This document shows positions 7,205 through 60,028 of a stretch of DNA of 64,000 nt, in pieces. Position 1 is the stretch's first letter, and each line of letters opens with the position of its first letter. The translations under genes were made by a program, and so were the position numbers. The DNA comes from Saccostrea cucullata (taxonomy: Eukaryota): assembly GCF_032062105.1 (NCBI RefSeq), contig NW_026935377.1, positions 62,001 to 126,000 of the forward strand, given 5' to 3'. The notes beneath the pieces are model-generated. The model ran no database searches and was not told the origin of the DNA. It worked only from the letters and a program-made list of their open reading frames with translations.

Positions 7205-7295
7205 CAATTTCCCGAATATTGATATGAACGTGATTGAGGGCTATAACTCTGGAAATTTCATGAATGATTAAATGTTAGAATTTAAATGCATTTTA

Positions 7296-21444: not shown

Positions 21445-22240
21445 CAAATGGAGATAACGAACAGTATTCAAGTTCAAAAGTCCATAAAACAATACAAAAT
21501 AGAAGCAGAGCAAACACGGACCTCCAAAACAACGGAAGTGGAATCAGGTGCCATGGAGGTGAAAGCATCTCCTGCTGACCGGTCACAACAGCCGTGTTCT
21601 CCTTGTCATGATCAGGAAATAACGGAAAAATCCGTCGTCAATTCAGTTTATAAGTAATAGACTAACAATTAGTATAAAAAAGTCAGGCAGCATTTGACTC
21701 AATGATAAATTATATTTGCTGACAAGGTCATTGTATCGACCATAAAACTTACGAAATTATGACTCTAAACGAGACAGCTGATATTCTTGTTTCGTCAACT
21801 TGTTTGTCAATACCTCGTTTTAGAAATTGTTCAAGTATGCTCTTGTATATCGAATCAACTGAGATATATAAACTCCGTATGCAGGTGATGAAGGTATATT
21901 GCTGCATAGGTAAGGAAAATTAACGATAGAAAAGTTTTAAAGTCATCGCACGTATCATAGAGGTTGGTTGTTAGATTACCACTAACGTCTTTTTCAAGTA
22001 AAATATCCAAATATGAAACAGATGAGTCAGACTCTGTGGTATCTTTTATTTCAAGCTCACCTGGATATATCGTATCGACAAAAGAATGGAAATTGTCATT
22101 ATTAATTGACAATTCGTCGTCGATATATATCTAATGTCGAGTTGAAGGCCACAGTGTTTTCTTCATTTCACGCATAAGATTTTGCACAAATTCTGCTTGT
22201 TCATATGAATACAAAAATATGTCTGCTAATAACGGAAGGT
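21445..22240 (-). mobile_element. Degenerate Penelope-like retroelement 3' fragment
   Basis: RT C-terminal region IKDTTESDSSVSYLDILLEKDVSGNLTT plus the conserved non-coding end; frameshifted. Confidence 0.75.
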
Positions 22241-22394
22241 AAAATTGTTCACTATACACTCTTTTGCAACGAAGCAAAATTTACTTTTCGACTACTCGTC
22301 ACATTAATATAAGCATTTCCACTGTTATACATAATAAGAATATGACAAATTCAAATTGTAAAAAAAACAACGTTAGTACATTTTGCATATTTAT

Positions 22395-23727
22395 CTAAAA
22401 GTGGGTACATCTGCACTGGCCATCAATGCAGTGGTGTTCACGTCCGTGGTCACATCGTCCGCCACAGTCGCTGGCCATAGTGCAAGCTGAAATAATAATA
22501 AAGATATTGAGGTCTCTTTTTCTGATTGGAAAATTCGACGCATAAGAGGTTAGAGCACAAAGCATACATTTAGATTTCCTATGTTCATGTCATGAAACTA
22601 CTAACCTCCATCGCCACCTGCTGCTGTGGTACATGTGCACTGATCTCTGATGCAGTGAAGCGTGGAGCCACCACCACATGTTGTGGCTGTGCAGTCACCC
22701 GTGTCTCTACATCTTTCGGCAGAGACTGTAAAAAATTGAAGATGAAATGTCTTAATGTTACTTTGTCCAATGTATATCTGTGTGATAGTTATAAATAAAT
22801 AAAAAGTTGTTAAAACTGTAAGAATTAAAAAAACACTAAAACTTGTCAGCAAAGTAAGTGTGCACAACAATACTATGATTTATTCAAAACTGTCTTTTCT
22901 TCTACAAAGCAATTTAGATTTGTCATGCATAACACAATATCTGACATGTTCTACTGTTAAATCGTATAATAAACGGTTATTACTCTCTGCTCACTTGCAG
23001 GGGCGTAGCTAGACAAAAATGATCTGCACGCCAAAAAAGGCAGGGGGTCTGGGGGCCGCCTTCCAAGAGGCCCCCAGTGGGTCCAGGGCGAAGCCCTGGT
23101 GGGGGCCCAGGGGGCGAAGCCCCTGGAAGCTCCTGGGTTTTCACGTTTAGACTGAACAAAATTTACGCAATTTTTAAATATATAACATATGCTACGAGAT
23201 GAAGTCAACTTCACGATATTTTGATTTATGACACCAAAAAATAATAGATCTATTAATATTTAAAAAATATTTATGTTTTTTTTTTTTTTTTTATAAAATC
23301 AAGTGCATTGTCTGAATTTTTGTGATTACTTTAAAAAGGTATTTTTAGTTCCATTTTTTGTCTAATTTTTAAATAATGAAATTAAAACAAAACAATTTCA
23401 ATCCAGCAAATTTAATTTCCCCAAAACGTGCGGCGTCATGTTTCATGTATTAACTATAGGTATTACATATATAACGTTAGGCCTGCAGGCATAGTAAGTT
23501 TACACGGAATCTTTTAGGAATTTAATTTTTTATATGACGATATAATCAATTTTTTAATAATAAATTTTATAAAAATGCACAGTAATTTTTTTTTGGACTA
23601 AAAGATGTGCACGCCATGGCGTGCTGGCGTATAGGCAGCTACGCCCCTGACTTGTTTAAAACTGTTCGCCACAGTAGTCATACATACCTGCTAAGACAAC
23701 AACAGCGAGAAGGAAGATAGCCCTCAT
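22395..23727 (-). CDS. Cys-rich secreted peptide 2 (cvSI/I84-like), 3 exons, 83 aa
   Basis: Exons 23727-23688, 22725-22606, 22486-22395. MRAIFLLAVVVLAVSAERCRDTGDCTATTCGGGSTLHCIRDQCTCTTAAGGDGACTMASDCGGRCDHGREHHCIDGQCRCTHF*. Confidence 0.92.
22998..23649. mobile_element. Non-autonomous TIR element with a 5-bp TSD in intron 1 of gene 2
   Basis: ACTTG-CAGGGGCGTAGCT ... AGCTACGCCCCTG-ACTTG; GC-rich subterminal block. Confidence 0.85.
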
Positions 23728-23785
23728 AATGATCTTTGATTGAATGATTCCACTGAAAGAGGATATAATACTTCATTTCTTTTCA

Positions 23786-23861
23786 TTTATATACCTAATA
23801 TAGGAGAAATTACCTTGAAACGGTCAGCTATTTAGCACGGATTACAGACACGTGCAGATAA
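23786..23861 (-). promoter_or_regulatory. Gene 2 promoter module
   Basis: TATATAAA 23793-23786; CGGTCA 23821; AGATAA 23856. Confidence 0.6.
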
Positions 23862-24781
23862 AACAAGGACGAATTATAATGTCCTCATGCCAAAGTGTAC
23901 CATTCAAAGTAAGCTTCAATGTGCACTTAAACATCGAATAATTTTTTTGAATACAATTAAAAATACGTTTTAGAGTTAAAATTGAAAAAAAATGTACTAA
24001 AAATAAGCATGTAGAAATTAAAGAGTATATTTAAAGTTGTAGTTTAACCACATCTTTGCATCATCTTCAGATTATAAAAAAAGATACTACAAAAATAGTC
24101 AGATTACTCCATACCATAGAATGATTGTATCATGCAAACATTTTTTTTAAAAATTGATTAAAGTCGGCATGTCTTCTAGTATATAAAAAGTAATTGATAA
24201 GTATGTTTGGTCACACATATTTTACATTAGTTTTTTGTGTATGTATTGCATGCATTGTATTATTTTTTCATGTATTCCAAGTTCTCTGATTGACTAGAAC
24301 ACATGATCAAGTATAAAACAGCATAAAGACTTGTGTTATTAATTACAGATTCTGATATGCATATCGACTTGATGTTTCTAAAAAATGGAAATAATTTTCT
24401 GCTAGCAGTAGCTACTGCAGTGTATGACTTGATGTTACTGAAAAAGAAAAATACTTAAACCCCTATTTTAAATCTGATGTTCTGTAATACAATAATCGGT
24501 AAGACGTAACTGTGCCTTGAATAACTTCTATTTTATATTGAAACATACTATAGATGTTTTCAAAAATCAATTCAAAACATAATAAAACAAATGTAGGCCT
24601 TTTGAATTATTACATTCCCTAAATTACTCTATTAATATATAGGAAAAACAATTACATTAAACAGCCCAAATTGATTTTGATCTATAGTCTCTAAGTGTTA
24701 AAAAAGACAAGAGAAAAACTTGTCTTCCTACCATTATTTTCAAATTTTGTTTTGTCAATCTTTGTAAAAAATGATATAACT

Positions 24782-24909
24782 AATGTAGCCCTTTCATTTG
24801 GTCAATCCATAGATATATCGACTTCGAAGAAAAGCATATTCGTGCTCGATCGATATGTTTTTCTGTGAAGTCGATATATCTATGGATCGACCTCATCACA
24901 GGCTACATT
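24782..24909. mobile_element. About 130-bp near-palindromic MITE-like hairpin
   Basis: AATGTAGCC...ATCCATAGATATATCGACTTC ... GAAGTCGATATATCTATGGAT...GGCTACATT. Confidence 0.7.
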
Positions 24910-24988
24910 TATATAACATTTTGAGCATGTTTTTATATAAAATACGTTATTGTGATATTGATTAATTGTATGTAGTTTAACGTCCCTG

Positions 24989-25019
<31 letters not shown>

Positions 25020-26091
25020 TTATCGTGAGAGATATTTTGAACATAAATTCTGGATGAAGAAAACGAAAAAGAGTTGTTATAAAGACGTCAATATATTCCT
25101 TTCGGGCAGCAATAGACGAGACCTAAGGTTGTAATTATTTTAATGGTTAAAAAAAAGTAAGGGGCGAAGCTTCCATTTGTGTCTATGAGGCAACTGCCTC
25201 AGAACATTTTCAGAACTATCCTCTTCCCATAATTAATAATACAACTGTACATTGCAGAAAATATTTTTAAATTTGTTTTTAAAAATTATGCATCTTTTTA
25301 ACATTTGAACAAATCTATAATTTGTTGTGGTTTCATATCAATATGTTCGGGATCAAAATTCATGAAATCGGGCTCGTTCTAGTTCTAATAAATCCTCAAA
25401 ATAGTTTTTGTGGGAAAATTTAAAAAGTATTGATCAGAACATAGACCAAAAGAAAGGGAGCAAAGTTGACATCTATTTTGTTGAAAAGACAAAAAAGACA
25501 GTATAGAATCGGCGTCAGATGGGCCTATTTTACAAAACCTATCAACTATAGTGAATATTCTTTATCCTTATACATGTACACATAGTTTCAAAATTAATTA
25601 ACACTACAAACCTGCTCCCATAAAATAACACAATTTTTTCTGTTACCAGTGATTCCCTATTTTTCACAAACAGATGAATATATTACGCCAACATAAGAAC
25701 TTTCAAAGCCTGAGCAGTATAAGGTCATTTTAAATTTACTCTATTGCATTCTCAGAAAACATGAATGCTTAAGTCTTCAATAATGAAAAAGGTAAAATTA
25801 CGGAATTTCTGTCCCGGAAAAGTATGATTTTCACATCACCCCCCCCCCCCTTATCCCCTGCCAGAAGTCCGCCGTTTTTCGTTTTAAAAAGCTGATGATT
25901 AATTTTTATTGAGCCTTTCATGAGAACTTTTATATATCTACAGTCCTATGGAATAGTACTTTTCTGTGATATCGATGGTCGAAGTTTGATAAGGGCAATT
26001 GTCTAGGGTCTTTAATTTGTCTGTGTAGAATTATGCGAAAAGTATGATATTTTTTTTTCAAAATATTTAAACACGAAGGCATTCTGAAAAG

Positions 26092-26394
26092 AAACTAGAG
26101 GTACTGTGAGCAATGAGCTCACTAAATAATACCCCCCGCCTCCCATATGAATATAATGGCAGTATCCATGTTTTCCTCTGGAAAATCCAAAATATATGTC
26201 AGATCAAAAAGTAAAATATATAGGAGGTGTACAATGGCAATATGTAATAAAGATTCTGTGAAAGTTTCATCAAATTTCCTTCAGTGGTTTGAGAGGAGTT
26301 GCGGATAAGAGATGGGTACCCCAAAGCGTAACAGACGGACGGACGGAAATACCGATTACTATATACCCTCCCACTTTTCAAGCGGGGGGTATAA
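26092..26394 (-). mobile_element. Helentron/HINE-like element, same family as 12993-13540
   Basis: AACTAGAGGTACTGTG...(GACG)n...TTTTCAAGCGGGGGGTATAAA. Confidence 0.7.
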
Positions 26395-26625
26395 ACATAA
26401 TATATGTACAATAATGCTAGAAATAAGCAGTGGTATTATTTGTATTTTAACCGAGTTGGTAGTTAAGAGCGTATGGTCCAGGGAAAAGATTTCCCACTTC
26501 TCAAATGATGTAATTGTCGAAATCTTGTCGAATACAACTTTAAATTTGCAACTCTCAACCATCAAGTTGTAACATCCTAATATGAGTGAAAGATTCTCTA
26601 AGGAACGTTTAACAAACAGATAAAG

Positions 26626-27010
26626 AACAAGATGTGTTTGTGAAACACTATGCGCCCGGCAGCAACAAAGTTCGAAAAAAGCTATTTTTAGCATATAGGT
26701 CACAGTCAAGGTCCCAAGGTCATTGACCTTGGTGTCAATTCAAAGAACTTGATTAGTAGAATATGCATACTAAATATGAAGTCTCTATCTTTTATGGTTC
26801 AAAAGTTATGGCGAAGGTTAAATTTTACAGAAAAAAACTATTTTTAGCATATAGGCCACAGTCAAGGTCACAAGGTCATTGACCTTGGTGTCATTTGAAA
26901 GAGCTTAATTAGTGGAGTATGCATATCAAATATTAAGTCTCTATCTTTCATGGTTCAAAAGTTATGGCGAAGGTTAAAGTTTGGGGACAAACAAACAGAC
27001 AGACAGACAG

Positions 27011-27044
<34 letters not shown>

Positions 27045-27093
27045 AGGACAAAAACAATATACGCCTCGGATCTATCGATCCGGGCGCATAAAA
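26626..27093. mobile_element. Helentron/pearl-like element with about 2 internal ~155-bp repeats and (GACA)n
   Basis: Subterminal IR ATGCGCCCGG / CCGGGCGCAT, terminal hairpin CGGATCTATCGATCCG, GGTCAAGGTCA-type core repeats, GACA microsatellite at 26995-27045. Confidence 0.75.
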
Positions 27094-28634
27094 ATACTTT
27101 CGAATAAAGTTTATCGTCCTTGTTTTAGTCAGGGTGCACCTGAATTTTGATTTTAGATTCTACATTCAAAGTCAGATCCCTTTTACTGCATGTCTTTAGA
27201 AATCATTGTTATGATTAAAGCTTCCCTGAAAAAAGGTATCAACAAAAACGCAATTCTGATAAGAGACCAATATATAGTTATTTTTTGGGTCTAGATATAT
27301 AAATAAAATTAATTTCTAAAACAAAAAAAAATACAGAGTAGCTTTCAGACCTTAAACCAACCTAGATATATCAAAAAAGTGCAGTTAAGGTCATCAGGAA
27401 GAAGACACACAGAACAGTGACCAGATAAAGGGTCATACTCTAAAATGTAGAACCAGCTACGATACAAGAAAACACGAAATATGAGTCGTGTTGTTCCAAA
27501 TACCAGACAGAAAATTTAGTCATGTCTGAGAGGAGAACCACGTTTTTGTAGTTGATTGTTTCAGATTTTTTTTATATGCTTAGATTTGGTTTGTCTTATA
27601 ATTTTAATACAGTGTAGACATGTATATCTAATTTTTGTTGTTCGTTCTCGAAAAACTCATGGAGTATTTAAAGCTTGAAGCAGAAATTCAAAAAAAAAAA
27701 TAGTTTATCAAATTGTGAGCTGAGAAAACATGGACCAATGACAAGGTGAGTATATTTACGAGTTCATTTCTTATTGAAAATGCAACTGTCAAATATCAAA
27801 AGCTTGGACCTAAATTTATCGTGCGGAATTGTGGTATATAAAAGTTAAAAAGCTGTAAGTTTTAACGCTGTTGATTTTGGTAAAATTTTGTGAATTCAAA
27901 CTTTTCCAAATGTTCCTTGGATTTTTTAAGTATCTACGTCTAATTTACACAAGTTCAGGAATATATTGTTATTCGGTACTGAAGTACTGTTGAATTTTCT
28001 CCTTCACTACTGTTAATTTCTGAATGAGGAGTAAAGAAAGAGACTTGGTAAAACAATTATTGGAACCCTGTATATATCTTTGTTTGTAAGGATTTTTAAG
28101 AATCCTTTTAAGATTTCTTTTAGAAATATAGATAAAGTAATTCAAATTCATTTTGATTGTTTAGAATATCAGGATTCATTCCTTGATATCTGTTCAAAAC
28201 CTCTGGTAACACATGCTGATTTTTGTCTAAGAACATTTATTGGTAGTATAATTTTAAATTTAATATATCTTGAAAAATTATCAGTAAGTATGTCCTTAAA
28301 TTGATTAAACCAAGAATAATGTAAGCCCTCTGCAAAGTGGAAACATATATCTAATTGAATGTTTTCTTTACAAAGCCTACAAGGGCCTTCAGAGGACTGT
28401 AAATCAAAAATATAGTGATAGATGAAATATTGAGATAATGAACAGTATTTAAGCTCAAAAGTTCAATAAACAATACAAGATAATGCTAAATTGTCATAGA
28501 ACTTACGTAATGATGACTCTAAACGAGACTGCTGATATTCTCGTATTTACAATGCGTCGTCGATATATCGAAACGACGAAATATGAAATGTTAAGAAAAG
28601 CACACACAAGTTAAACCTTATTTTTTTAATTTCT

Positions 28635-29880
28635 TTAAAAATGAGTACATCTGCATCTTCCATCAATACAGTGATGCTGACGTCCATGATCACATCGTCC
28701 TTGACAATCATCGGCCCTGACGCAATCTGTAAGAAAATCAAGAAGATGAAGAAAACAGATATTGATCGATTTAAAAAAATCCCTGGACAGGGCATATACT
28801 CCAACCCCAGGTAATATCAGGTACGGGATCAGGCACCTAGGATCAGTAACTGATTCTTATTTGTTTATTCTTATTGTCAGAAATTTCACTAATTCCTATT
28901 TTGATATAATGAAAGGTATACCTCCATCGCCACTGGCTGCTGTGGTACACGTGCACTGATCATTGACACAATGAACTGTGGACCCCCCGGTACATGTTGT
29001 GAGTGTACAGTCCCTCGTGTCGTCACACCTTTCTGCGGATACTGTAAAACATTGTATGTAATGGCAGTTGATTATAGAACAAATCATGCTGTAATACATT
29101 AAAACTGTATCTAACAGTAGTTAATTAAAATTATATCTAACAGTAGTTAATTAAAATTGTATCTAACAGCAGTTTAGTAAAATTGTATCCAACAGCAGTT
29201 TATTTTCAAGGATTCATACTGTAAAACATTAAAATTGTATCTTAAAGCAGTTAATTATAAAACAATTAAATCATGCTGTTAAACATTAAAATTGTATATA
29301 ACAGCAGTTAGTTATAGAACAAATCATGCTCTAATACATTAATATTGTATTTTAAAACATTTAATTAACAACGAATCATACTGTAAAATTTCATAATATT
29401 GTATTTGACGGCACTTATTAATCAAACTACGGAGGCTCATTAAGGACCAATCGGAAATATTTTTGTGAATTTGATATGAAAAATTGGCGAATTTGTTATA
29501 ATAAATTTAATTCGATATAACAGTTTCTTTAAATTAGTTATGACGAATTTAATCTAAAATAACTTTTTATTGATATCGTTATATCAAAAAAAAAAATTAT
29601 AATAAATTTAATTCGATTAAACCAGTTCTAAAATTAGTTAAAATACATTTTAAATTCGTTTATACAAATTCTATTTGTTATTACAAAGTCAACATTCAGG
29701 GCCTACAGAATTTACAAATTTAAAGAAATCATTTTTGCAATATATACTTTTAGACTTCTTGATCTGCAGCCAATTTGTTTGCCTTCTCCTGGTTTTTCAT
29801 TCTGTGAAAACATATTGCACAAAATTATCACAATACAAACCTGCAACAACAACCAATGCGAGAATAAAAACAACCTTCAT
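28635..29880 (-). CDS. Cys-rich secreted peptide 3 (cvSI/I84-like), 3 exons, 83 aa
   Basis: Exons 29880-29841, 29041-28922, 28726-28635. MKVVFILALVVVAVSAERCDDTRDCTLTTCTGGSTVHCVNDQCTCTTAASGDGDCVRADDCQGRCDHGRQHHCIDGRCRCTHF*. Confidence 0.92.
29075..29400. repeat. Degenerate ~30-bp minisatellite in intron 1 of gene 3
   Basis: Repeated AAAATTGTATCTAACAGCAGTTAATT-like units. Confidence 0.7.
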
Positions 29881-29948
29881 ATTTCCTCTTTTCTTCACTG
29901 ATTGTTGTGAACAAAGATAATTTAATTATTAATTTCTTCTCAAGTATA

Positions 29949-30025
29949 TTTATATATATATACCTTGAAATAATTTATCTTGCAAAGGTCAGGAAATCAG
30001 AAAGTTTAAGGCCGTGCAGAGATAA
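29949..30025 (-). promoter_or_regulatory. Gene 3 promoter module
   Basis: TATA run 29949-29962; CAAAGGTCA (AGGTCA at 29986); AGATAA 30020. Confidence 0.6.
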
Positions 30026-31437
30026 AATCAATCACGAAACATAATGTCGTGCTTCTCGAAAAGCAGGAATAAAAACTATGGCATGTATATATATGAGGTA
30101 CTTATCTGTAGTTTTTCATATTATGAACATATCTTCAATATTTGTAATGTAAACAAGGAATAAAAGCAAGGAACTGCAGTAGTCGATTAAGGTCTAGTGT
30201 AAATATATAAAATTTATTTCGCTATATTTATATATGAAAATGATAACGTTTATGTACTCGACATCGATAGCCAAACGAGTTACTTTATCTGCCAATGGAA
30301 AGAAAGCATTTTCTATTCAAATAGAAAAAGAACTGTAAAAAAAATTGTGTTTTTCTTTGACTAAATCATAAAAAAAATGCGATGTGATTTTTTCCTTTTT
30401 TTCCCCCTCCAATTTGAATGAATGGAAAATGAAGACCCGAACAGCATTGAAATTCAGTGTGATAATCATAACCTTTTGATTTATATGTAGCACTTCAGTC
30501 GACAGGTGCTGTCGCACTTAATATTTGTATTTCATTTTTCCGAATCGGTCGCTTGGCGCAGTGGTTAAGGCGTTTGCTCTATATTAAAAAATTCTCAAAA
30601 GGGGCGCTTCACAAAATAATTGTCCAATTTTAGTGAATTTTTGTAAAAAAAAAAAAAAAAAAAGCTATTATTTTCAATTCCCATATGAACTGTACTGTAA
30701 AGTATCTGCTTTAAGCAGATTAGAATTTAAGAAAGACTACCTGATCTTTATGGAATGGTTTCAGCTGACAAAGCTCTTTGTTTGCAAGGCTTATTTTAAC
30801 CATTTCATTTTAGAAAAGAAGCGAGAATATATTCCTAATCTTGTAACCCAATTTATTCTCTCAGTCCCTATTCCTCAGAGTCACGTTTTGAGTTTAAATA
30901 CTTTAATAATTCCGGTAAACGTGAGTGAACTTAAGTTTCAAATCTATACTGAAATTCGATATCTCATAAAAATATAAAATCAATACATGGAACGCTACAG
31001 AAATGCATACCTTGTGGATGATAAATTGAGATAACGAATGGCATTTAAAATCAAAAGTCCATTGAAACCATAGAAAGCGTGAGCAGAGCAAACAGTGCTG
31101 TTGATATCATTGGCTCTCATACTAAATTTGATACTTATAGTCCAGATAAATAGATAGATGACAGGAAATACTTACTCTTTCCAGGCACATGAACTCACCT
31201 CATTTAGAATCTTAAAGATTTAATAAAGTTCTCAAATTTGGGGAATAATAGTTGTATTCTAGGCATATTGTGGAAAATAAGTTTTCTTATCTAGATATGT
31301 CATGGTCATTATTTATCAAAACTTTTTAAGATATGAATTATTTTCAGTTCTTCAGTTTTATTTCTATAATTTCTACAGGTCAATATACAATGAATCAGAC
31401 ATGTGACAACTCGTTAAGGTAGACGAATTTATTTCTT

Positions 31438-32782
31438 CTAAAAATGTGTACATCTGCATCGACCATCAATACAATGGTGCTGGCGTCCATGATCACAACG
31501 TCCGTGACAGTCATTGGCCATGGTGCAAGCTGTGGTAAAAAAAAATGAATTAATTTACCAAATTATTCAATGAAGTGCTATGCGGAGAGAGCTTTTAAAT
31601 TACTAAATAAAATATCTATTTAAAGCATAAGTATGTCGTAAGTATAAATTTTTGAAAATTTTGAAGGAAACTAGACGACTTTGGGATTTTTAAAAAGATT
31701 TTTATATTTAAAAAAAAAATCTTAACCCTCTGAAACATCAATCTAGGATTAAACTTGTCTATCGATTGAGAGAAAACTGCTAAAAATACTAAGAAAATAG
31801 GGACGAGTCGGGTGCTTATACAATAGAAAGTTGGTAAAAATTGCAGATTCTAAGATTTCTTATTTCATAGTTTCAATTATTTTCAGCAATACTAAATACC
31901 CAGTATGTCGTATCAAGTCACATACCTCCATCACCACTTGCTGCTGTGGTACACGTGCACGTATGTCCAATACAATGGAGGGTTGATCCGCCCCCGCATG
32001 TAGTGGCTGAACAGTCATCCGTGTCATCACATCTTTCAGCGATGACTGAAAGACATTGAATTTCAAAACAGAGGCTTAGCAATTGCATAGCTGTTTATTT
32101 CATGTCTACAGGCCTAAAATAACTTGAAACGTAAATTAATTTTCTTGTAATTATCTGGTGATTTAACTAATATTTCGTTTGACTTTCAATACACTCACTA
32201 ACAACATGACATGCGCTTTAACATTGATTCAATAGACTTAATTGGAATTCTTTGGAAAATATAACTAGCATTATCATTTCAATAAAGTAATATTCAAACT
32301 TAAGATCAAGAGAATATTGAACAATGACTACAAAAAAGTTCAACTTGTATATTCCACACGATATATGAATGTATCCCTTCAGATAGGCATACCACACAAA
32401 TATGCTTAATTAACTAAATTACAAACTAATTAATGCAAATGCATGATAGAAAAGGAAATTTATCTTTTTCACAATTAAAGAATTTTTTAAATTTAAAAAT
32501 GAAACAATCCAAGATACAAATACATATTTAAATAAATTCTTTAAATGAAGAAAGAAATTAATGAGTGTACATTAAAAAAAAATCTTTATGTCATGGAAAC
32601 CATATTTGCAATGTTATTACAATGCTGCAAAAAAACTTCTTTGTAAATGTTCAAATCTTATTCAGTATTGTACCTTCTTCTGAATTGTCTTCTGAGAAAA
32701 CAATTTGTAAATATTAATCTACATGTAAGTAAACACAATTACCTCCGACAACAACGACAGCGAGAATAAAGATGGCCCTCAT
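31438..32782 (-). CDS. Cys-rich secreted peptide 4 (cvSI/I84-like), 3 exons, 83 aa
   Basis: Exons 32782-32743, 32045-31926, 31529-31438. MRAIFILAVVVVGVIAERCDDTDDCSATTCGGGSTLHCIGHTCTCTTAASGDGACTMANDCHGRCDHGRQHHCIDGRCRCTHF*. Confidence 0.92.
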
Positions 32783-32840
32783 GGTGATCTTTGCTTCACT
32801 AAATGTTGTGAATGATTATATATATGGCCAATTCTTTTCA

Positions 32841-32916
32841 CTTATATATCTTCTCTGAACTAAATTATCATGCAAAGGTCATCATTTCAGCACATAACTT
32901 TGTCATGTGAAGATAA
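32841..32916 (-). promoter_or_regulatory. Gene 4 promoter module
   Basis: TATATAAG near 32841; CAAAGGTCA (AGGTCA at 32876); AGATAA 32911. Confidence 0.6.
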
Positions 32917-33109
32917 AAATAAGCACGAAACGTAATGGCGTGTTGCTGGAAAAGCAGGACATGAATAAAGGTCTTCAGACGTTCAGCTTTGGTGGTGATT
33001 AAATGGGTCCATGACTGTTTTATCAGTAACATGCATCATTTGAGAAATCGTTTGCATGTAGAGCAAGCCCTTGCATATTAAGTCTTCTGAAGACATAAAT
33101 TTCCTATAT

Positions 33110-33840
33110 GAAGGATATGGAGATAACGAACAGTATTCAATCTCAAAGTCCATAAAACAATTCAAAATAGGAGCAGGGCAAACACGGACCTCCAAAACAT
33201 CAGAGGTTGGATCAGGTGCCATGGAGGAGTGAGCATCCCCTGCTGACCGGTCACACCCGCCATGTGCTCCTTGTCATTATCAGGAAATAACGGAAAAATC
33301 CGTCGTCAGTTCAATGTATAAATAATGGACTAACAATTAGTATCAAAAACGTCAGTAGCATATGACTCATTGATAAATTGTATTTTGCTGACAAGGTCAT
33401 TGTATCGCCATAGAATTTACGAAATGATTACTTTAAACGAGACGGCTGATATTCTTGTTTCATCAACTTGTTTGTCAATAATTCACCTCGTTTTAGAAAT
33501 TGTTCATACGTAGAGCATGCTCTAGCGTATCGAATCAACAGAGATATATATACTCCGTATGAAGGTAATGAAGGTATATTGCTGCACAAGTAAGGGAAGC
33601 TGACGATAGAAAAGTTTAAGTCATTACGTTTATCATATAGTTTGGTTGTTAGATTACCATTAACGTCTTTTTCAAGTAAAATATTCAAGTATGAAACAGA
33701 TGTGTCAGACTCTGTGGTATCTTTAATTTTATCTCAAGCTCACCGAGATATATCGTATCGACGTAGGAATGGAAATTACCATTGTTAATTGACAATACGT
33801 CGTCGATATATCTAAAAGTCGAGTTGAAGGCCACAGCAAG
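33110..33840 (-). mobile_element. Penelope-like retroelement 3' fragment
   Basis: FRYIDD motif and LTTKLYDKRNDLNFSIVSFPYLCSNIP...LIRYARAC; same family as 21445-22240. Confidence 0.8.
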
Positions 33841-34952
33841 TATATAGGTGATAAGGGTTTAATGCTGCGTAAATGAAAGAAATGAATGAAAAGTTGAAGT
33901 TATCCCATTAATCATAAAGAGCGATCCAATCAGTGAAAGTTTAGGCTTAACTGTTTATAATAATAAATAAAATACATAACTTAAATATGAATAAATATCA
34001 CCCACTGGACTCTTAATCAGCTAAGCTCAGAAAAAAACCCCGCTCATTCTCAATAAAAAATTCAAGTCATTTACGTTTTTGAAATCAGTAAACTTTGCAG
34101 GTTAATTTTTTGAAGGCAAAACTTTTGAGCAATAATATATTTTACTTGAGACATTTCCGTCTTATCAATAAATAGAGCTCTCGGCGGGTGTGAAAGGTCA
34201 ACGAGGGATGCTTACTCCTCTAAGGTACCTCAGAGAATTTTTAGGATTGATAGGGCAGAACAAAATAATTTTATAATTAATTATAAAATCTTTAATAATC
34301 GAATGTCATCAACGCAATTTGAAATGTGAAACCCTCCCAAATGGAAAAGAAATCTAACAAAATTGTTTCAAAATATCTTCAAACCCCTACCAAAACATAC
34401 TTTTATATTTTCTTTGTATGTTTTGAAAGTGTTGCATATAACGAAACATCAATGCAACACTTTACAGGATGGGGGTGGCATGGTATTTTGGTAATGTTTC
34501 ATTTCAATGTTGGTGTTTTATTAATGTTTCATCACACTCTGCAAAATGAAATTGCAGTTTGAAAGTATTTCGTTACACTTGTCTGCATCAAAGTAATATT
34601 TTTTAGCATTTCATTTGATTAACAGACATTTTTAGGGTTGAATTATCTCGGAGCTGTAAAAGCTTCAAAGAACAACATGTCTGTTTACAACCTGTGTTAG
34701 ACTAGAATTTGCGCCAATTTTCAAACCACCAGCACTAGGTCAGAGAGAAATAAAGAGATTGGTGAAAGGACATACAAAGTGTTAGTATATATATTGATCC
34801 CTGATTGGAAAAAGCAAAATCAGGATGAATCTGGATATAAAAGAGGTATTTATTGCATGACATAAAGTTCTTTTTACTGGACTACAGTAACCTTCAATCT
34901 GTGAATGTGGATGTGTATATGGCCTGTTTTTATTAGGTTTTAATTTATTCTA

Positions 34953-34953
34953 A

Positions 34954-34990
<37 letters not shown>

Positions 34991-35405
34991 CAAAATTTAT
35001 AGAGCGCCTTATATAATAAACACAATTACTCTAAAGCGCTGTACAACATAGTTAAAATACATTCATAAATACAACATCAAGAATAAAAATTTTGTTGAAT
35101 AGCATAAGAAAATAAAATTAAGTATTGATAACCATATTAAAAATAAAAAATATTTCTGCAAAATGATGATTAAACGATATCAAAACACGAAAAGAGAAAA
35201 CTGCATACAACAGAGCATAAGAAATTTAAGAAGATTAAAAATAACCAAATATTTAAGGTCAGAAATCTTTAAAAATAAATAAATAAATAACTAAATAAAT
35301 AAAAACAGTCTATATTTGACACTTAAAAATAAAAATTTAACCGAATGCTTCCCTAAAAAGATGAGTTTTCAAATGTTTTTTAAAAGTGTTCAAAGATGGG
35401 CATAA
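34953..35405 (-). mobile_element. 3' end of an L2-like LINE with a (TAA)n tail
   Basis: Minus-strand PSLNTFKKHLKTHLFREAFG* at 35399-35337, then an AT-rich UTR and the (ATT)n run at 34953-34988. Confidence 0.7.
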
Positions 35406-37719
35406 AACCAGATGACCTTTAATCCATATACTAGCTTAGATCAGTTTTAAGCATTGGATTAAGTGATGAATTATAATACTTGAAAATTCTGTGAAAATGT
35501 ATGTGATTGGAGAAGTGGCCAATGACTTGAGAATTATATCTCTTATACCAAAGGAATTTAACTGCAGAGAATTGATAAAAGAGAGTGAACTTGCATGGTG
35601 TTTTTAAATGCTGGAATGGTGTACAATTGTCTATTGAACCATAATGTCAATCCTGGAATTCAAAATACTGTGAAACAAGAAGTGTTTATAATGTTTCAAA
35701 ATGAGACTGTGTTTAGATAATTTCAAAGACTTGTGGATTTGTTAATCATGATTTTAAAAAATTCAAATTTAGTGGTTAATTGATGATTTGTTACTTATGA
35801 TTTCTTAGTAGTTTGTTAGAGTGTTTTGTTAGCCTCATTTGCATGTGATTTGCTATATTATTGGAATACTTTCAAATCACAGTGTTTTGTAAGTAGTTTG
35901 TTAGAGTGTTTTATTAGTAATTTGTTATAGCGTTTTGTTAGCTCATTTGCATTTGATTTGCTATACTATTGGAATACTTTCAAAACACAGTGTTTTGTTA
36001 GTACTTTGTAATAGTATTTTGTTTGCCCTTTTTTTCATTTGGGTATATTTTGCTTTTAACTTTAAAAATTCCATTTAGTTGTAAAAATACTTTTTCTAAA
36101 GAAAAAATCAATACAATGTCAGGTTTGTATATGTTTATCACCACGCGTTATTTATTATCCCGACATCTTTTTGACATTGCTTTTCAACATTAAGTTTCAA
36201 TTTCTTTGCAAATCAGTTTCACCTCATACATGCTTCTTTTGATTATATTTTACTTTCACTTTGCACCAAAGCATGCATCTTTATTAAGTTGGTTTTATTT
36301 TTTAAAAAAATTATGTTTGAAGTGTACATAAAATAAATGCGAAATATTTAAAGGTTTCTGAATCAAATAAAAATGAGTATTTAAAAGAAACATCACAACA
36401 ACGCCAGTTTATTCTTTCTTAGCAGCGATAGACAAAGCTTAGCGTTGTGTTTAGTACATTTTAATATTTTGAAAAGTGTTTCATAAATCTGAATGATATT
36501 TTAAAGCAAAAGTCAAAAAGATTGAGTATTTATATGTACATGGAGCACTAGTAACATGAAATGCTTGATCAACCCCGACGTACACTACTGTGGGATCATT
36601 TTAATACGTTGAGGCCAACATTCGTGGACATGCAAGATTTAATTGGTTTCTGGAAACATTTTTTCTGGGTAAATTGTACGTATAGAAGAATTATGTTCAC
36701 AACATAATTGTTCTTGGGGATTTTATTCGTGGATTAAGGAAAATCCACGAAATCCATGAACACTGGTCTCCAACAAACTCTGATGATTAAGGAGTCTACA
36801 TTCTTTAAATATATTTAAATTTGCAAAATGTCTTTGGAGACTTTCAGTTCAGAAAACTAAACGCATATATAAATGTGACGATATGCAATTCGTAGGGAAA
36901 CCAGGACAGTGACCGAATAAAGGGTTATGCTCTTATATTCAGACAAGTGTTGCTATAAGGAAACACGAAATATCTATCGTGTTGTTCCAAATACCAGACA
37001 GAGAATAAAGTCAGGAATGATGTCATGTCTGAAAGGAGAAACATGACTGTTCAAATAATACAGTTCATTGTTTCAGTCTGCCTTTACTTTAGGACTTGGA
37101 AGTGTTGGAATCAACATTCATCACAACTTTTTTCCGTTTTCGAAAGATTATTTACATATTTAAAGCTCCTAACGTAGATTTTTGAAAATCTGAAAAAAAA
37201 TATCTAACGCTATACTTAGTTTATTGATATGTTTAAAATTGTGCGCAGAACAATAAAAAGCGATAAACACATAATAGTAGGAATCAAGTGACATTGAGGA
37301 GAAAGCATTCCTTGTCGACCGATCACAACTGTCGATCATCAGGTACAGGGAAAAATCCATAATACGTAGATATAAGACTCTCATTATAGATTCTGATAAA
37401 TTGTGTTCATATTCTTTATCTTTTTTCCTTTAAAAATCATTGACTTTTATTCTTTTTATGCATTCTAATTAAAAAAATTTGTGTCCCATGCTTAAATGAT
37501 AAAAACAGTCTGAGGATCGAAAGGGAGTGTTCAAGATATAGGGGACACCCTTAAGAAAGGGCGGGCGGGGTCATAGGGAGTCATGTTATACAAATTCATT
37601 GCAAAAGCTCAAAAGCCCGGAATTGGAACATTTCCACAGGGAGGAATGTATGATTTTTTGACCTTGACCATTGACTTTTCGACCTCAAAATGAATATTGT
37701 TCATTCATAGGTCATAGGG

Positions 37720-38066
37720 ATTGATTAATTGTATATTATTTAACGTCATATTCGAGAATTTTTCACCCATATAGAGACGTCACCGTATGCAGGTGAAGGG
37801 CTTCAAATTTAGACCTACAGTATACTCGATACTTAAGGCCATTGAGCAGTGAGGGTTATTTATCTGGCCAAATCCTACCTTGACATGGGTCCAACGTTTT
37901 TAAGGCCATATCCGAAAGACCTGTGGCTTCACTTCTAATGCCGAGCGCTTGGCGAAAAAACAGTCACTACCATCTATGTTAACGTCTTAGGTTTGACGCG
38001 GTGCTGCGAACGAGAATCGAACCCGGGCCTCCCGATCACGAAGCGAACGCTCTAAAACTGACCGCT
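37720..38066 (-). mobile_element. tRNA-derived SINE nested in a Helentron-like element
   Basis: B-box-like GGTTCGATTC on the minus strand near 38020 plus the family body. Confidence 0.65.
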
Positions 38067-39889
38067 TTAGGGATTTATAACCTTGACCTTTCTCCCAAGA
38101 ATCGATAGGATCTCCTTTAGTTCATAGGGAATTGTGATGTAAATTTCATTGCAAAAGTTCAAAGGTTTCTCGAAATATGGCGAGGAAATGAAAATGTTAC
38201 ATGCAGGCAGATAGATATGCAGCTAGACGGAAGGACAGATCTAAATTAATATCCCAAACTGATAATGAAAGCGAAGATTAAAAGAAAGATTTTGTCGTTT
38301 TTTATGGAGAGGGTTAATTTTGAAGAGAATGAATCTTCTGAATAAATGAAGTCAGTGATGTCAGATGAAACCTAACTATAAAAACAGAGAAAGTGGACAT
38401 ATTAAAGACACCAAAGCAATAAGCACGCTAACTCTCGATTCCCAGTTTCATTTAATACTTTTCAATACTAATGACAATTTAGCCATTATATTTTGGTAAA
38501 ATACCAAGAAAAGGTCAATAGTAATAGATTAATAATTTCGATAATAATATTAAATATTAATGAGCTCTTATTTCCAATTCTTTTCATAAGAGAATAGACG
38601 GTGTTTTCTGTTAAAATCGTGCTTTAAAGCATGCACCACAAGATTTTCAGATGCTCTAAGATTAGGATAAATGTTCCTTTATATCATGCTTATGAAATCG
38701 AAGATATATGATTGTTACCATACAATTTTCTGATAGTAAATACTTTGAAATTTTAGAAGTTTTCTAGAAAAAAATGAGCATTTTTTTCTTTTTTGTCTGT
38801 AAACATACCCCCCCCCCCCAACCTTAAACAATTCCAACTTATATTAAAATACAATGTAAATGTGTTATTTATCTTTTTTTACCAAAACAAGCTTATATAC
38901 AAGCTTACAACAAGCTTATATAGCTTAAGTAATGTTTTGTGAAAATTCTTCAAGAGCAATAGGACAACACTTTCAATAGTAAAATGTTCTTACCACGGCA
39001 AATAATTATATGATTTTTTTGTGTGTATATATTTCGATCATTAAAGTTTCTTCTTGATTGTCAAACTACTCATTTTTTTTTCTAAAAAGCCTGTTTTTCC
39101 TATGAAACTACGGTCATGTTTGCTACAGAGTTACACAAAGGTGTAGAGAAAGGAGAATGTTAAAATTAATGAAATTTGGCACTAAGCAAAAAAGAAATAT
39201 ATATAAATGTTTTAAAGTCACTGACCTGACTCAATCTTTAATAATACAGATTCAAAATTCTTTTACTTCTTCTCTCTTGTGTTTCAGTTCATAAGCAATG
39301 GACACAACACGGGACTGCTGATATACTAAATTCACCAACTTAATTTTTAATAGCTTGCCTGTTTCTAGAAAGTGTTCATTTTCAACACAGGCTTGAAGAT
39401 TATCAAATGATAGAATATTTCTGAATATATCTAAATATTGAAATAAAGGCCACAATAGGAGACCTGTTCTTTTTTCAATAAATTCTGCGAATATTAGGTT
39501 TTCTCTGTCACTGCACGACAAAAACGTCATCGTCGTTATGACGCTATTTCGACGCTATTTTATTATCTTCCTCACATCTTTTTATACCTCTTGTATCCTT
39601 TTTCAGTTAAAAGGTAATTTTACTAACCCGTTTTGTTATAAAGCATCTTGTTTTGCATTGTAGTAAATCATTTTGATTTTGGCGAATCTTTCCCAAAATT
39701 CATTCTCTTTTACACAGATCTTCTGAATATAATTTCAGGTGACATCCGAAATATTAAGAGGCATTGGTATATAGAATTTTGCTGATTGTGTTATTATTAA
39801 AGGTTTTGACTTTACATTTGGATCAACAATAAGTGAGACAAATAAGATAAATAAATCAAGTAAGAAAGTGGAAAGGTAGATTTATTTCT

Positions 39890-40760
39890 TTAAAAATGAG
39901 TACATCTGCACCGACCATCGATACAGTGGTGCTGACGAGCACCGTCACATCGTCCATGACAGTCACTGGCCATGGTGCAAGCTGTCATAAAAAGAAAGAA
40001 AAAAAAATCTAAATCCTCATAAAACCTGTATCTAGAATTAATCTTGTCTAAATATTTTAGAGAACAATGCTTAAAATTACAAAGACACAAAAAGTTATAG
40101 AAAAAAATGTTATTTGGTTGAAGATTTTACAAAGAAAGTTGGTAAAAATGGCTGATACTTCCGTTTACAATGTAATACTTTCTAATAAGAGTTTCATAAT
40201 TTTCAAGAAAACTTAATGTCCAGTATGACGTATCGAGTCATCTACCTCCATCGCCACTTGCTGCTATGGTACACGTGCACAGATGTCCAATACAATGGAG
40301 GGATGATCCGCCCCCGCATGTAGTGGCTGTACAGTCACCTGTGTCACTACATCTCTCAGCCGTGACTGCAAACAAAGGTTGTTAGCAATTATATAGCAAT
40401 TCATTGAGTCTACAGGACTATACTAATATAAAGCACAGTTCTGTACATAAATGTTCTTGTGGTCACGTGACAAAGGTAAGATTTTCTTTAACTGTAAATT
40501 CACATAATTTACCTTGCAATAATATGTGAATAAAAAATAAATAATCTGTTTAAATATGGTACAACAATTTTGTAAAATGATTTATATATAAGAAAAATGT
40601 TTGTAATAAGTAAATACATTGCTATAGGAAAACCTTGATCATTGACAGTCAAAATTTTGATTGTATCTTCTTCAAGAGAAAACATATAACGGATATGCTA
40701 ATCACAGAATACACACATACCTGCAGCAACAACGACAGCGAGAACAAAGATGGCCTTCAT
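39890..40760 (-). CDS. Cys-rich secreted peptide 5 (cvSI/I84-like), 3 exons, 83 aa
   Basis: Exons 40760-40721, 40365-40246, 39981-39890. MKAIFVLAVVVAAVTAERCSDTGDCTATTCGGGSSLHCIGHLCTCTIAASGDGACTMASDCHGRCDGARQHHCIDGRCRCTHF*. Confidence 0.92.
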
Positions 40761-40808
40761 GGTGCTTCACTAAATGTTGTGAACGACATTTTTGGTGATT
40801 TTTTTTCA

Positions 40809-40883
40809 CTTATATATCTTCTCTGAAAAAATTATCTTGAAAAGGTCAGATATTTCGCACATAATTCTGTCATGTGAAGATAA
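40809..40883 (-). promoter_or_regulatory. Gene 5 promoter module
   Basis: TATATAAG near 40809; AGGTCA 40843; AGATAA 40878. Confidence 0.6.
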
Positions 40884-55777: not shown

Positions 55778-56439
55778 TGCTATAGACTTATTACTGAAGT
55801 AAATGCAGGCCCTGATTCACCGATTACTCATTTATTTCGGATACCTCGCTGTGTGGTTTCCTTGTGGAGGAGGAAGCATGCAGGAAGTTTTTTTTATTTA
55901 AACGTTACGAAACATACATATAACAAAAAGTATATATAATGCAGTTTTGTACAGCTGTTGCACCTATAAATATCTGTTCTGGTATCAATGATGAAAATTA
56001 TTTGGATATGTGTGAACGTACACATTGTTTTACATTTTGAAAACTACTTAATATATATGTTTTGAAAATACAAGACCTATAATTCTTTTCGTGCTGACAA
56101 TCTACTGCAACAAAATTCTAAATCATCTGCGATGTTTTGTTGTATTTTTGAAAACATAATAAGGTTTTAAAATTTCCCTTTTCTTGCAGTGGAGTGGAGA
56201 AATGGGGGTTTAAAACGCTTTCATGATATGATATCTGAATTTCAAAACTCCGCTGACATTTTTCTGAATAGTATTTTGCAAACAAAGATACATAGCGGGT
56301 TCCAGTATATCCTCCTCAACCAAGCCCCTTTATTTACTCCTCACTAAGATATTCAAAGTAGTGAAGGAGAAACTTCAAGACAACAATATATTCAAGAAGT
56401 AAGGTAAATCAGATGTGGATCCTTAAAAATTCCAATTAT

Positions 56440-58852: not shown

Positions 58853-60028
58853 TTAAAAGTGGGTACATCGGCAATGGCCGTCAATACAGTGATGCTGGCG
58901 ACCAAAAGAACACCTGTCATGGCAGTCGGACAACGTGGTGCATGTTGCTAAAAAAGAATATTTGTTATCTTAAATAAATTGACTAGCAAAATTGATTACT
59001 TTGATACAGTTTTCTTTACGGTCAGATGATACAAACAAAGAATTGATGCCTGGATTGGTATATATTCATGGATTGGTATATATTCTTTGACCTTATTTCA
59101 TTGCAAAATTGATGCAAACAATAAATTTCTAGAATATCTTTAAATTGTAAAATTTCTGCGACATTCAAAATTCTACCCTTCTGAGACCATCCTTATTATT
59201 CTATAAAAATATTTTTCACTTCATTTTCCATCTTTCTGCAATTTTGAATAAAACTTACGCGGTGAAACTTATTCATTTTATTCATTAAAATATGACCTAA
59301 GTTATTATTTTCAAAATTTTTGACAAAAAGTTGTTTGTATCATCTGTCCTTAATATTTGTTTTTGTTTAAACCGTGAATTAATAAGTTTTTAAAAAATCG
59401 AACCACCTATCACAAGTGTTCTTAAATAAAACTGTATCTTCTTGCTATTGCCTAACCTCCGCTACTGGCAGCCATTGTGCACGTGCACGTGTGGAAGATG
59501 CAGTGTATCTCGGCCCCAGTACCACATATTGTGTTTTTACATTCTTCGTGTCGGTTGCATGTCTCAGAGTATACTGAAAAAATAGCGCATCAACATTTTA
59601 TTTGTTTTATCTTTTTTAAGTTGCTGGGATATTTTAAACGAGACCGTAAATATCCCTGCGTCGCGGACTTACTTGTCTATAGCCTGCCTCGTTTTAAGGA
59701 TGTTCATACGTAGATACATTCTCAACTGACAGATAAACTCCTTTATATGTGAAATTCTTATGTTGCTTTACTAAGAGAATTTATGTTTTTACAAAGTGTT
59801 GTTTCCAAGGAATTTTCAAAAAGAAAATTGACAAAGAAGTGGAAAAAGAGCTACATTGTTTTCTATAAAAAAAGAAAGAAAAAAGATCTACTTACTGGCA
59901 GAGTGTAGACTATCTTCTCATTTTTAAGAAAATATGATGGCCTCCTTTTACAAATAGCAGTATTTATCATAGCAATTCACATACATACCTGCTACAATCA
60001 GGAGAGCGAAAGCAAAGATGATTCTCAT
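58853..60028 (-). CDS. Cys-rich secreted peptide 8 (cvSI/I84-like), 3 exons, 83 aa
   Basis: Exons 60028-59989, 59573-59457, 58947-58853. MRIIFAFALLIVAVYSETCNRHEECKNTICGTGAEIHCIFHTCTCTMAASSGATCTTLSDCHDRCSFGRQHHCIDGHCRCTHF*. Confidence 0.92.
59020..59349. mobile_element. About 330-bp MITE (TTAA at right end) in intron 2 of gene 8
   Basis: TIR CAGATGATACAAAC / GTTTGTATCATCTG; second copy at 62299-62623. Confidence 0.75.

What the first reader, a model, noticed from the sequence alone, without database searches (positions are those of the whole stretch)
22395..22725. One cysteine module per exon: a tandem CS-alpha-beta-like domain pair on phase-1 exons
Seen in all eight genes: exon 2 encodes C-x5-C-x4-C-x7-C-x4-C-x-C and exon 3 encodes C-x5-C-x3-C-x7-C-x4-C-x-C, with two one-gene exceptions noted separately. 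Both modules have an invariant His before Cys4, and a Gly/Ala/Thr linker spans the junction. Established: CxxxC plus CxC with this spacing is the cysteine-stabilised alpha/beta signature of invertebrate defensins and short scorpion toxins (charybdotoxin C-x5-C-x3-C-x10-C-x4-C-x-C). Inference: the gene arose by exon duplication of a single defensin-like module. Exon 2 is symmetric (phase 1-1, length divisible by 3), so skipping it would give an in-frame single-module peptide.
Basis: partly seen in the sequence, partly recalled or inferred. Interest (0 to 1): 0.72.

Follow-up and report, generated by a model that had tools for sequence, protein, structure and literature searches.

The report
Oyster two-module protease inhibitor gene cluster
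These are eight neighbouring oyster genes of an already known family of small secreted protease inhibitors (I84); their one-cysteine-module-per-exon layout is real but published, and the only fresh point is that the second module is predicted to resemble a defensin or scorpion-toxin fold and the two modules likely arose by duplication.

Summary
Eight minus-strand genes (a ninth lies just outside the window) have three exons, two phase-1 introns and six cysteines in each of exons 2 and 3; RNA reads confirm the junctions of three genes, including the one in the finding. [quoted passage not shown] The CS-alpha-beta idea is half right. Only module 2 has CxxxC (8 of 8 genes; module 1: 0 of 8; family-wide 20 and 7 of 118). 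AlphaFold models of module 2 match mainly scorpion alpha-KTx peptides and defensins, but weakly (Z 2.0-3.5), and the helix stops at Cys2 instead of spanning CxxxC. Module 1's fold was not tested alone. The modules resemble each other beyond cysteines (7 of 5000 permutations), which supports internal duplication. No exon-2-skipping joint was among the 15 joints shown of 101, and exon 2 carries the predicted signal-peptide cleavage site. Known family, modest new structural lead.

The parts
23688..23727 (-). g7 exon 1 (coding part): first 13 residues of the signal peptide, ends in phase 1
   Evidence: RNA joint 22725/23688
22606..22725 (-). g7 exon 2, 120 nt, phase 1-1: last 3 signal residues (V-S-A), predicted cleavage before Glu17, module 1 and most of the linker
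   Evidence: RNA joints on both sides
22631..22711 (-). g7 module 1, C-x5-C-x4-C-x7-C-x4-C-x-C
22395..22486 (-). g7 exon 3 (coding part to the stop codon), starts in phase 1
   Evidence: RNA joint 22486/22606
22407..22484 (-). g7 module 2, C-x5-C-x3-C-x7-C-x4-C-x-C; predicted one-turn helix plus beta-hairpin, CS-alpha-beta-like
58853..60028 (-). g1, I84 gene (exons 60028-59989, 59573-59457, 58947-58853); identical to P0006
49051..51987 (-). g2, I84 gene (exons 51987-51948, 49479-49369, 49145-49051); identical to P0008
45937..47011 (-). g3, I84 gene (exons 47011-46972, 46268-46143, 46028-45937); module 1 has C-x6-C; 81 of 85 residues match P0007
39890..40760 (-). g4, I84 gene (exons 40760-40721, 40365-40246, 39981-39890); identical to P0004; junctions seen in RNA
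31438..32782 (-). g5, I84 gene (exons 32782-32743, 32045-31926, 31529-31438); identical to P0183; junctions seen in RNA
28635..29880 (-). g6, I84 gene (exons 29880-29841, 29041-28922, 28726-28635); identical to P0002
14136..17211 (-). g8, I84 gene (exons 17211-17172, 14484-14368, 14230-14136); module 2 has an 8-residue Cys3-Cys4 loop; 66 of 83 residues match P0017

Best explanation
These are expressed, tandemly duplicated oyster genes of the MEROPS I84 (cvSI-type) family, encoding 81-85-residue precursors with 12 cysteines, whose mature peptides are likely secreted and likely inhibit subtilisin-type serine proteases of pathogens. How it most likely works: the signal peptide (exon 1 plus three residues of exon 2) is cut before Glu17 (inferred from the V-x-A/S pattern); the ~67-residue, weakly acidic, His-rich product folds into two small disulfide-tied modules, one per exon, each a one-turn helix ending at Cys2 plus a C-terminal beta-hairpin (predicted); bonds are likely 1-4, 2-5, 3-6 within each module (inferred from the match to CS-alpha-beta peptides, not measured). 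Module 2 is a reduced CS-alpha-beta-like unit. In the model the last strand of module 1 sits where the first strand of plant defensins and long alpha-KTx peptides sits, so the modules may form one continuous sheet rather than two beads (predicted, pTM 0.60). The rigid scaffold would present a loop to the protease active site and bind slowly and tightly, as published for cvSI-1; which loop is unknown. The two modules likely come from one ancient duplication of a module exon, fixed before the bivalve families split, and the nine-gene cluster from later whole-gene duplications. The normal product has both modules.
For: [quoted passage not shown] The 12-Cys array, three exons, two type-1 introns, six Cys per exon and tandem clustering are the published traits of I84 (PMC9198434). 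The same exon boundaries recur in 3 of 5 divergent loci elsewhere in G000 in which both modules fell within the fetched stretch. Fold: a 75-sequence family profile gives 38 PDB sequence hits, all on module 2: NCR13 (E 0.0013) and 37 scorpion peptides (E 0.012-5.1). VIA-align of the whole model: 12 of 19 rows are CS-alpha-beta peptides on residues 42-83 (best Z 3.5, rmsd 2.2, 41 aligned). Module 2 alone: 7 of 8 rows (Z 2.0-3.0, 27-30 aligned); Foldseek TM 0.68, rmsd 1.7 to noxiustoxin. Duplication: hhalign of the two exon profiles gives probability 76%, E 2e-5; with Cys fixed, non-Cys similarity is reached by 1 of 2000 (19 close relatives) and 7 of 5000 column permutations (67 relatives); 14 of 118 relatives have C-x4-C in both modules; three- and four-module relatives exist (P0117, P0039, P0198).
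Against: Inhibitory activity is inherited from the family name; these paralogs were not assayed, and the names are automatic annotations. The type sequences cvSI-1/2/3 were not among my named hits, so no direct comparison was made; identity of g7 to a more distant 'Cvsi-2-like' protein is 35%. No fold match is significant: Foldseek E > 0.6, VIA Z at most 3.5 where the tool says Z under 8 may be a common arrangement. Pfam Toxin_2 stays under its cut-off (best 20.3 of 25.1 bits). An EGF-type protein was the best PDB sequence hit of the narrow exon 3 profile (betacellulin, E 0.003), and a complement chain gave the lowest rmsd for module 2 alone (1.3 over 27, Z 2.1). Module 1 was never folded alone and no row covers it by itself. 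The residues shared by the modules (Asp before Cys2, [VI]-[DN]-G after Cys4) are also seen in NCR13 and scorpion peptides, so they may reflect the fold rather than descent. PMC9198434 reads the two modules as differing in pattern and probably in function.
Confidence: 0.75

Rival explanations
1. One reading: two canonical, independent CS-alpha-beta defensin domains, with exon 2 skipping yielding a one-module peptide and with defensin- or toxin-like activity.
For: Module 2 has C-x5-C-x3-C and C-x4-C-x-C as in charybdotoxin (alignment); fold matches are to CS-alpha-beta peptides; the exon 1-exon 3 join is in frame in 8 of 8; module 2 alone is modelled with pLDDT 82; nasonin-6 is a precedent for one defensin domain per phase-1 exon (PMC2853521).
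Against: Module 1 has no CxxxC in 8 of 8; the gap is 3 in only 20 of 118 second modules and 7 of 118 first modules. No helix over CxxxC in either model. The peptides are neutral to acidic (net charge -1 to -5), unlike cationic defensins (recalled). His and Thr/Ser stand where alpha-KTx have Lys and an aromatic residue (the role of that pair is recalled). No skip joint among 15 of 101 joints shown, against 315 and 313 reads for the normal exon 2-3 joints of g7 and g5. Skipping removes the V-x-A/S|E cleavage site.
Confidence: 0.12
2. The fold is a generic small disulfide-tied hairpin (NCR13-like, EGF- or EB-like), reached independently; the CS-alpha-beta likeness and the likeness between the modules are convergent and say nothing on ancestry.
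For: Chickpea NCR13 has exactly the module 1 spacing and is the best PDB sequence hit; its compact isomer has 1-4, 2-5, 3-6 bonds with a short helix ending at Cys2 (PMC11637438), as in my models. Plant proteins and unnamed cysteine-rich repeat proteins with the same spacing score in the family search (P0143, P0132, P0103, P0104). All fold scores are low.
Against: Within I84 the two modules are adjacent, each on its own phase-1 exon, similar beyond Cys and vary in number (P0117, P0039), which duplication explains more simply. This rival concerns ancestry only; it leaves the I84 identity untouched.
Confidence: 0.35
3. These paralogs have left protease inhibition and act as metal-binding or shell-matrix peptides.
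For: 5-9 His per ~66 residues; His72 and Asp75 are the best-conserved non-Cys residues (67 and 68 of 75); one relative is named hic7 from a pearl mussel (its shell-matrix role is recalled).
Against: The purified family members are protease inhibitors and the genes respond to infection (PMC9198434, PMC9892467). His/Asp at these places can be structural.
Confidence: 0.1

Closest known systems
MEROPS family I84 (cvSI-1, cvSI-2, cvSI-3 of Crassostrea virginica; scSI-1 to 14 of razor clam)
   Same: Signal peptide, ~70-residue mature peptide, 12-Cys array with C-T-C, three exons, two type-1 introns, exon 2 holding the end of the signal peptide plus Cys1-6 and exon 3 Cys7-12, tandem clusters (PMC9198434).
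   Different: An oyster-specific subgroup with very regular spacing, His before Cys4 in both modules and a Gly/Ala/Thr linker; nine genes in about 63 kb; not assayed.
Short scorpion CS-alpha-beta peptides (alpha-KTx; Pfam Toxin_2), including the trypsin inhibitor ToPI1 (PDB 6mrq)
   Same: Module 2 spacing, C-terminal hairpin with C-x-C, weak whole-length sequence and fold matches. ToPI1 shows that this scaffold can inhibit a serine protease (PMC10788795).
   Different: Cys3-Cys4 loop 7 instead of about 10, no predicted helix across CxxxC, no Lys/aromatic pair, not cationic, two modules per chain, under the Pfam cut-off.
Nasonin-2 and nasonin-6 of Nasonia (repeated defensin-like domains by exon duplication)
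   Same: Repeats of a six-Cys CS-alpha-beta-like domain, one per exon in nasonin-6, phase-1 introns, no processing sites between repeats (PMC2853521).
   Different: Insect, 4-5 repeats, proposed antimicrobial; no sequence link tested here.
Six-cysteine nodule cysteine-rich peptides (chickpea NCR13, PDB 8ulm/7th8; Pfam Nodulin_late)
   Same: Spacing 5-4-7-4-1 identical to module 1; short helix ending at Cys2 plus hairpin; best PDB sequence hit.
   Different: Legume, single-module, antifungal and symbiotic; score under the Pfam cut-off (28.1 of 30.4 bits); common ancestry not shown.

Membership tests
MEROPS I84 | Signal peptide and mature peptide of about 70 residues | tested here: met
   81-85-residue precursors with a hydrophobic N-terminus and V-x-A/S before Glu17 in 8 of 8; judged by eye, no signal-peptide predictor was run
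MEROPS I84 | 12-Cys array CX5-8CX4-5CX7-9CX4CTCX6-23CX5-7CX3-6CX5-8CX4CXC (razor-clam form) | tested here: met
   7 of 8 fit every gap; g3 has 6 instead of 4-5 at Cys2-Cys3 (array)
MEROPS I84 | Three exons, two type-1 introns, six Cys in each of exons 2 and 3 | tested here: met
   8 of 8; RNA joints for g7, g5, g4; published trait
MEROPS I84 | Sequence likeness to family members | tested here: met
   Identical to proteins annotated 'Cvsi-2-like'; bivalve-wide relatives; the type sequences themselves were not compared
MEROPS I84 | Inhibition of subtilisin-type serine proteases | not testable with these tools
   Needs an enzyme assay; known for cvSI-1 and cvSI-2 as cited in PMC9198434
CS-alpha-beta (cis-defensin) fold | CxxxC motif in module 2 | tested here: met
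   8 of 8 window genes, but only 20 of 118 relatives
CS-alpha-beta (cis-defensin) fold | CxxxC motif in module 1 | tested here: not met
   0 of 8 window genes; 7 of 118 relatives
CS-alpha-beta (cis-defensin) fold | CxC on the last strand of a beta-hairpin | tested here: met
   In both modules of the AlphaFold model: strands 34-39/42-48 and 71-74/77-81; prediction only
CS-alpha-beta (cis-defensin) fold | Alpha-helix that carries CxxxC | tested here: inconclusive
   Both models give a one-turn helix ending at Cys2 and none over Cys2-Cys3; shallow alignments and Gly-rich sequences may under-predict it
CS-alpha-beta (cis-defensin) fold | Disulfides 1-4, 2-5, 3-6 within the module | not testable with these tools
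   The structure tool does not report pairings; needs mass spectrometry or NMR
CS-alpha-beta (cis-defensin) fold | Overall structural match to solved members | tested here: inconclusive
   Module 2: 7 of 8 and 12 of 19 rows are members, but Z 2.0-3.5; module 1 not folded alone
Scorpion alpha-KTx (Pfam Toxin_2) | Pfam gathering score | tested here: not met
   Best 20.3 bits against 25.1 (4 exon 3 peptides scanned of 8)
Scorpion alpha-KTx (Pfam Toxin_2) | Pore-blocking Lys before Cys4 and aromatic residue after Cys6 (feature recalled) | tested here: not met
   His and Thr/Ser at those places in 8 of 8
Nodule cysteine-rich peptides (Pfam Nodulin_late) | Pfam gathering score | tested here: not met
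   28.1 bits against 30.4 for P0004, although the spacing of module 1 equals that of NCR13

The most novel reading that the evidence does not exclude
The mollusc I84 inhibitors, which have no solved structure, are tandem cis-defensin (CS-alpha-beta)-derived proteins: one defensin-like exon was duplicated, the helix shrank, the two halves fused into one sheet, and the scaffold was turned into a subtilisin inhibitor, with further exon gains giving three- and four-module forms.
Probability: 0.4. Interest if true: 0.5.

Novelty: new member of a known kind. Interest (0 to 1): 0.3.

Why it matters
I84 inhibitors are linked to oyster resistance to Perkinsus and Vibrio, yet no structure, disulfide map or reactive site turned up in my searches. 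A defensin-like fold for module 2 and a common origin of the two modules would tie this mollusc-only family to a large known scaffold and give a concrete plan (single-module constructs, disulfide mapping) for finding which half inhibits. The gene layout itself is already in print, so the gain is a structural lead, not a new system.

Tried and rejected
Pfam: no family reaches its cut-off for 8 exon peptides or for P0004; there is no I84 model among the hits. ESM Atlas: best scores 0.75-0.78, at chance level; not used. Foldseek: no match under E 0.6; the top row for the whole model, Ascaris carboxypeptidase inhibitor (TM 0.23, rmsd 9.4), was rejected. No solved I84 relative appears in the PDB sequence searches. 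Module 1 was not folded alone, so the absence of a row for it means nothing. No protease complex was modelled, so the reactive loop is open. The full list of RNA joints for one gene was not obtained, so the exon-skipping test rests on 15 of 101 joints. Orphan or extra module exons: profile searches of the window and 30 kb of flanks found exactly nine copies of each exon and no remnant; a Cys-rich scrap near 708 was rejected as chance. P0001 (three modules, named 'Teneurin-2') was rejected as evidence for exon duplication: its first module has its own exon 3 in P0015/P0199, so it is likely two neighbouring genes joined by annotation. C-T-M-A in module 2 as a reactive loop: Met is not conserved family-wide, so it is left as a guess. 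Literature: searches found no paper assigning a fold or disulfide map to I84; most I84 papers are in journals that the library does not hold (one look-up failed), so this is weak evidence. Earlier findings of the scan: none.

Full report
Observation. A six-frame scan finds 16 six-cysteine modules, all on the minus strand, in eight pairs. Each pair belongs to a three-exon gene: 40 coding nt, then 111-126 nt, then 92-95 nt, with GT-AG introns, both in phase 1, and 12 Cys after the signal peptide. For the gene of the finding (g7) the exons are 23727-23688, 22725-22606 and 22486-22395. Exon 2 spacing is 5-4-7-4-1 in 7 of 8 genes and exon 3 spacing 5-3-7-4-1 in 7 of 8; g3 and g8 are the exceptions. 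The strict motif occurs 14 times against 0 in 60 simulated windows. A ninth gene with the same layout lies about 3 kb before the window. Profile searches of the window and 30 kb of flanks find nine copies of each exon and no extra or orphan exon.

Expression and splicing. Four RNA runs were laid on 22200-41000, which holds g7, g6, g5 and g4. Joints fall exactly at the predicted places for g7 (exon 2-3: 18, 285 and 12 reads in X13, X14, X15; exon 1-2: 13, 76 and 11, plus 78 in X14 placed 4 bases further), for g5 (313 and 372 reads in all) and g4 (49 and 53). No g6 joint is among the rows shown, and X10 shows none. Most reads are only 90-99% alike, so they come from other animals. The table shows 15 joints and hides 86; no exon 1-exon 3 joint is among the 15, the weakest of which have about 6-7 reads per run. 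If the table is ranked by support, skipping is at most a few percent of normal splicing; this is a bound, not an absence. Skipping would also remove the last three signal residues and the V-x-A/S|E site, which lie on exon 2 in 8 of 8 genes, so exon 2 is not a pure module exon.

Identity. [quoted passage not shown] This is MEROPS family I84. [quoted passage not shown] It reports slow tight inhibition of subtilisin-type proteases and of the Perkinsus protease by purified cvSI-1, citing papers that I saw only as titles. It says that disulfides are only speculated and proposes no fold. PMC9892467 (passages) links Cvsi-2 expression to dermo tolerance. The central observation of the finding is therefore already in print for this family.

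Is it CS-alpha-beta? A profile search of 1.84 billion representatives gave 194 proteins at E up to 0.001; of the 150 listed, 118 are clean two-module proteins and 32 were dropped as partial, long or irregular. In these the C-x4-C-x-C end is stable, but the Cys2-Cys3 gap is 3 in only 20 second modules (range 1-12) and 7 first modules (95 have 4). His before Cys4 is in 99 second but 19 first modules. So CxxxC is not a family trait. AlphaFold2 on g4 with 29 sequences (pLDDT 78.7, 83-90 over residues 21-80, pTM 0.60) gives each module a helical turn before Cys2 and a hairpin; there is no helix over C61-x3-C65. Module 2 of g7 alone gives the same (pLDDT 81.7, pTM 0.38). VIA-align against 48,161 chains lists 19 rows for the whole model, 12 of them plant defensins, drosomycin or scorpion peptides on residues 42-83 (best Z 3.5, rmsd 2.2, 41 aligned), and 8 rows for module 2 alone, 7 of them CS-alpha-beta (Z 2.0-3.0). 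The second look at Foldseek's 107 chains keeps 15 rows, all on residues 43-83 and, where the title names them, all defensins or scorpion peptides. None of this is significant by the tools' own yardsticks, but it points one way, and 30-residue domains cannot score high. Against it: betacellulin tops the narrow exon 3 profile (E 0.003) and a complement chain has the lowest rmsd. Module 1 was not folded alone. Its spacing equals that of NCR13, whose compact isomer has 1-4, 2-5, 3-6 bonds and a short helix ending at Cys2 (PMC11637438, passages); that pairing was itself taken from AlphaFold and checked by NOEs. My reading: module 2 is a reduced CS-alpha-beta-like unit (about 0.75), module 1 an NCR13-like variant of it (about 0.6), and neither is a canonical defensin. 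The whole-model alignments begin at residue 43, so the last strand of module 1 and the linker take the place of the defensins' first strand; the model thus suggests one joined sheet (prediction only).

Did the modules arise by duplication? The two exon profiles align with probability 76%. With cysteines fixed, the similarity of the other residues is reached by 1 of 2000 permutations in 19 close relatives and 7 of 5000 in 67 family members; it rests on Asp before Cys2 and [VI]-[DN]-G after Cys4. Relatives with three (P0117, mussel; P0198, clam) and four modules (P0039, oyster) exist; their exons were not checked. Three divergent loci elsewhere in G000 keep the same exon boundaries. Nasonin-6 is a published case of one defensin domain per phase-1 exon (PMC2853521, passages). 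Caveats: the shared residues also occur in NCR13 and scorpion peptides, so they may be fold constraints; a phase-1 intron near the end of a signal peptide is common in secreted-peptide genes (recalled); and plant and unnamed proteins with the same repeat score in the search. Duplication is likely (about 0.75) and old, since it is shared across bivalves.

Function. The mature peptides have net charge -1 to -5 and 5-9 His and lack the Lys/aromatic pair of channel blockers (role recalled), which argues against antimicrobial or toxin action. ToPI1 shows that a CS-alpha-beta peptide can inhibit trypsin (PMC10788795, passages). I commit to secreted serine-protease inhibition in host defence, inferred from family membership; the reactive loop is unknown. 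PMC6262176 (passages) does not mention this family.

Verdict. Real and expressed; a new cluster of a known family whose exon-module layout is published. Its strong form (two canonical CS-alpha-beta domains, skipping isoform) is not supported. Interest 0.3.

Noticed in passing
L009:8461-6868 (minus strand; G000:C17514, about 3 kb before the window): Ninth gene of the cluster, exons 40/117/95 nt, identical to P0013.
   Followed up: yes
window 39981 and 31926: 287 RNA reads join a g5-like exon 2 to a g4-like exon 3, against genome order. g4 and g5 are 85-89% alike in these exons, so a mosaic allele or paralog in the sequenced animals, or mis-mapping, is likely; gene conversion is not excluded.
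   Followed up: partly
P0181 and P0186; P0068 and P0198: Annotated isoforms in other bivalves: P0186 has the exon 2 part of P0181 with a different, g6-like module 2; in a clam, isoform P0198 has a third module that P0068 lacks. Module choice by splicing may exist, or these are annotation artefacts.
   Followed up: no
window 54566-55816 (-): Intronless 417-codon rhodopsin-family GPCR frame (7tm_1, E 1.9e-32) between g1 and g2, on the same strand.
   Followed up: partly
window 5385-7274 (-): 630-codon reverse transcriptase frame (RVT_1, E 3e-38), likely a LINE-type element.
   Followed up: partly
window 50574-51005 (-) and 56703-57110 (+): Two related open stretches that look like decayed retroelement pieces; no Pfam match.
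   Followed up: partly
window 61311-64000 (-), continuing into L010: Exons of a neighbouring gene with long Thr-rich, mucin-like stretches and a possible cadherin-like exon (likeness by eye, only a weak LapA hit).
   Followed up: no
G000:C1181 and C14049 (L021, L023-L025): A second, divergent I84 group in the same genome with a longer C-terminal tail and the same exon boundaries.
   Followed up: partly
P0104, P0149, P0174; P0103, P0132, P0143: Unnamed long cysteine-rich proteins ending in four 5-4/3-7-4-1 repeats, and plant secreted proteins with two to four such repeats, score against the I84 profile. The module may be far more widespread than molluscs, or convergent.
   Followed up: partly
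introns of g2 and g5: A 475-bp element, 90% alike, is shared near g2 and g5; several repeats in the cluster draw many unrelated RNA reads.
   Followed up: no
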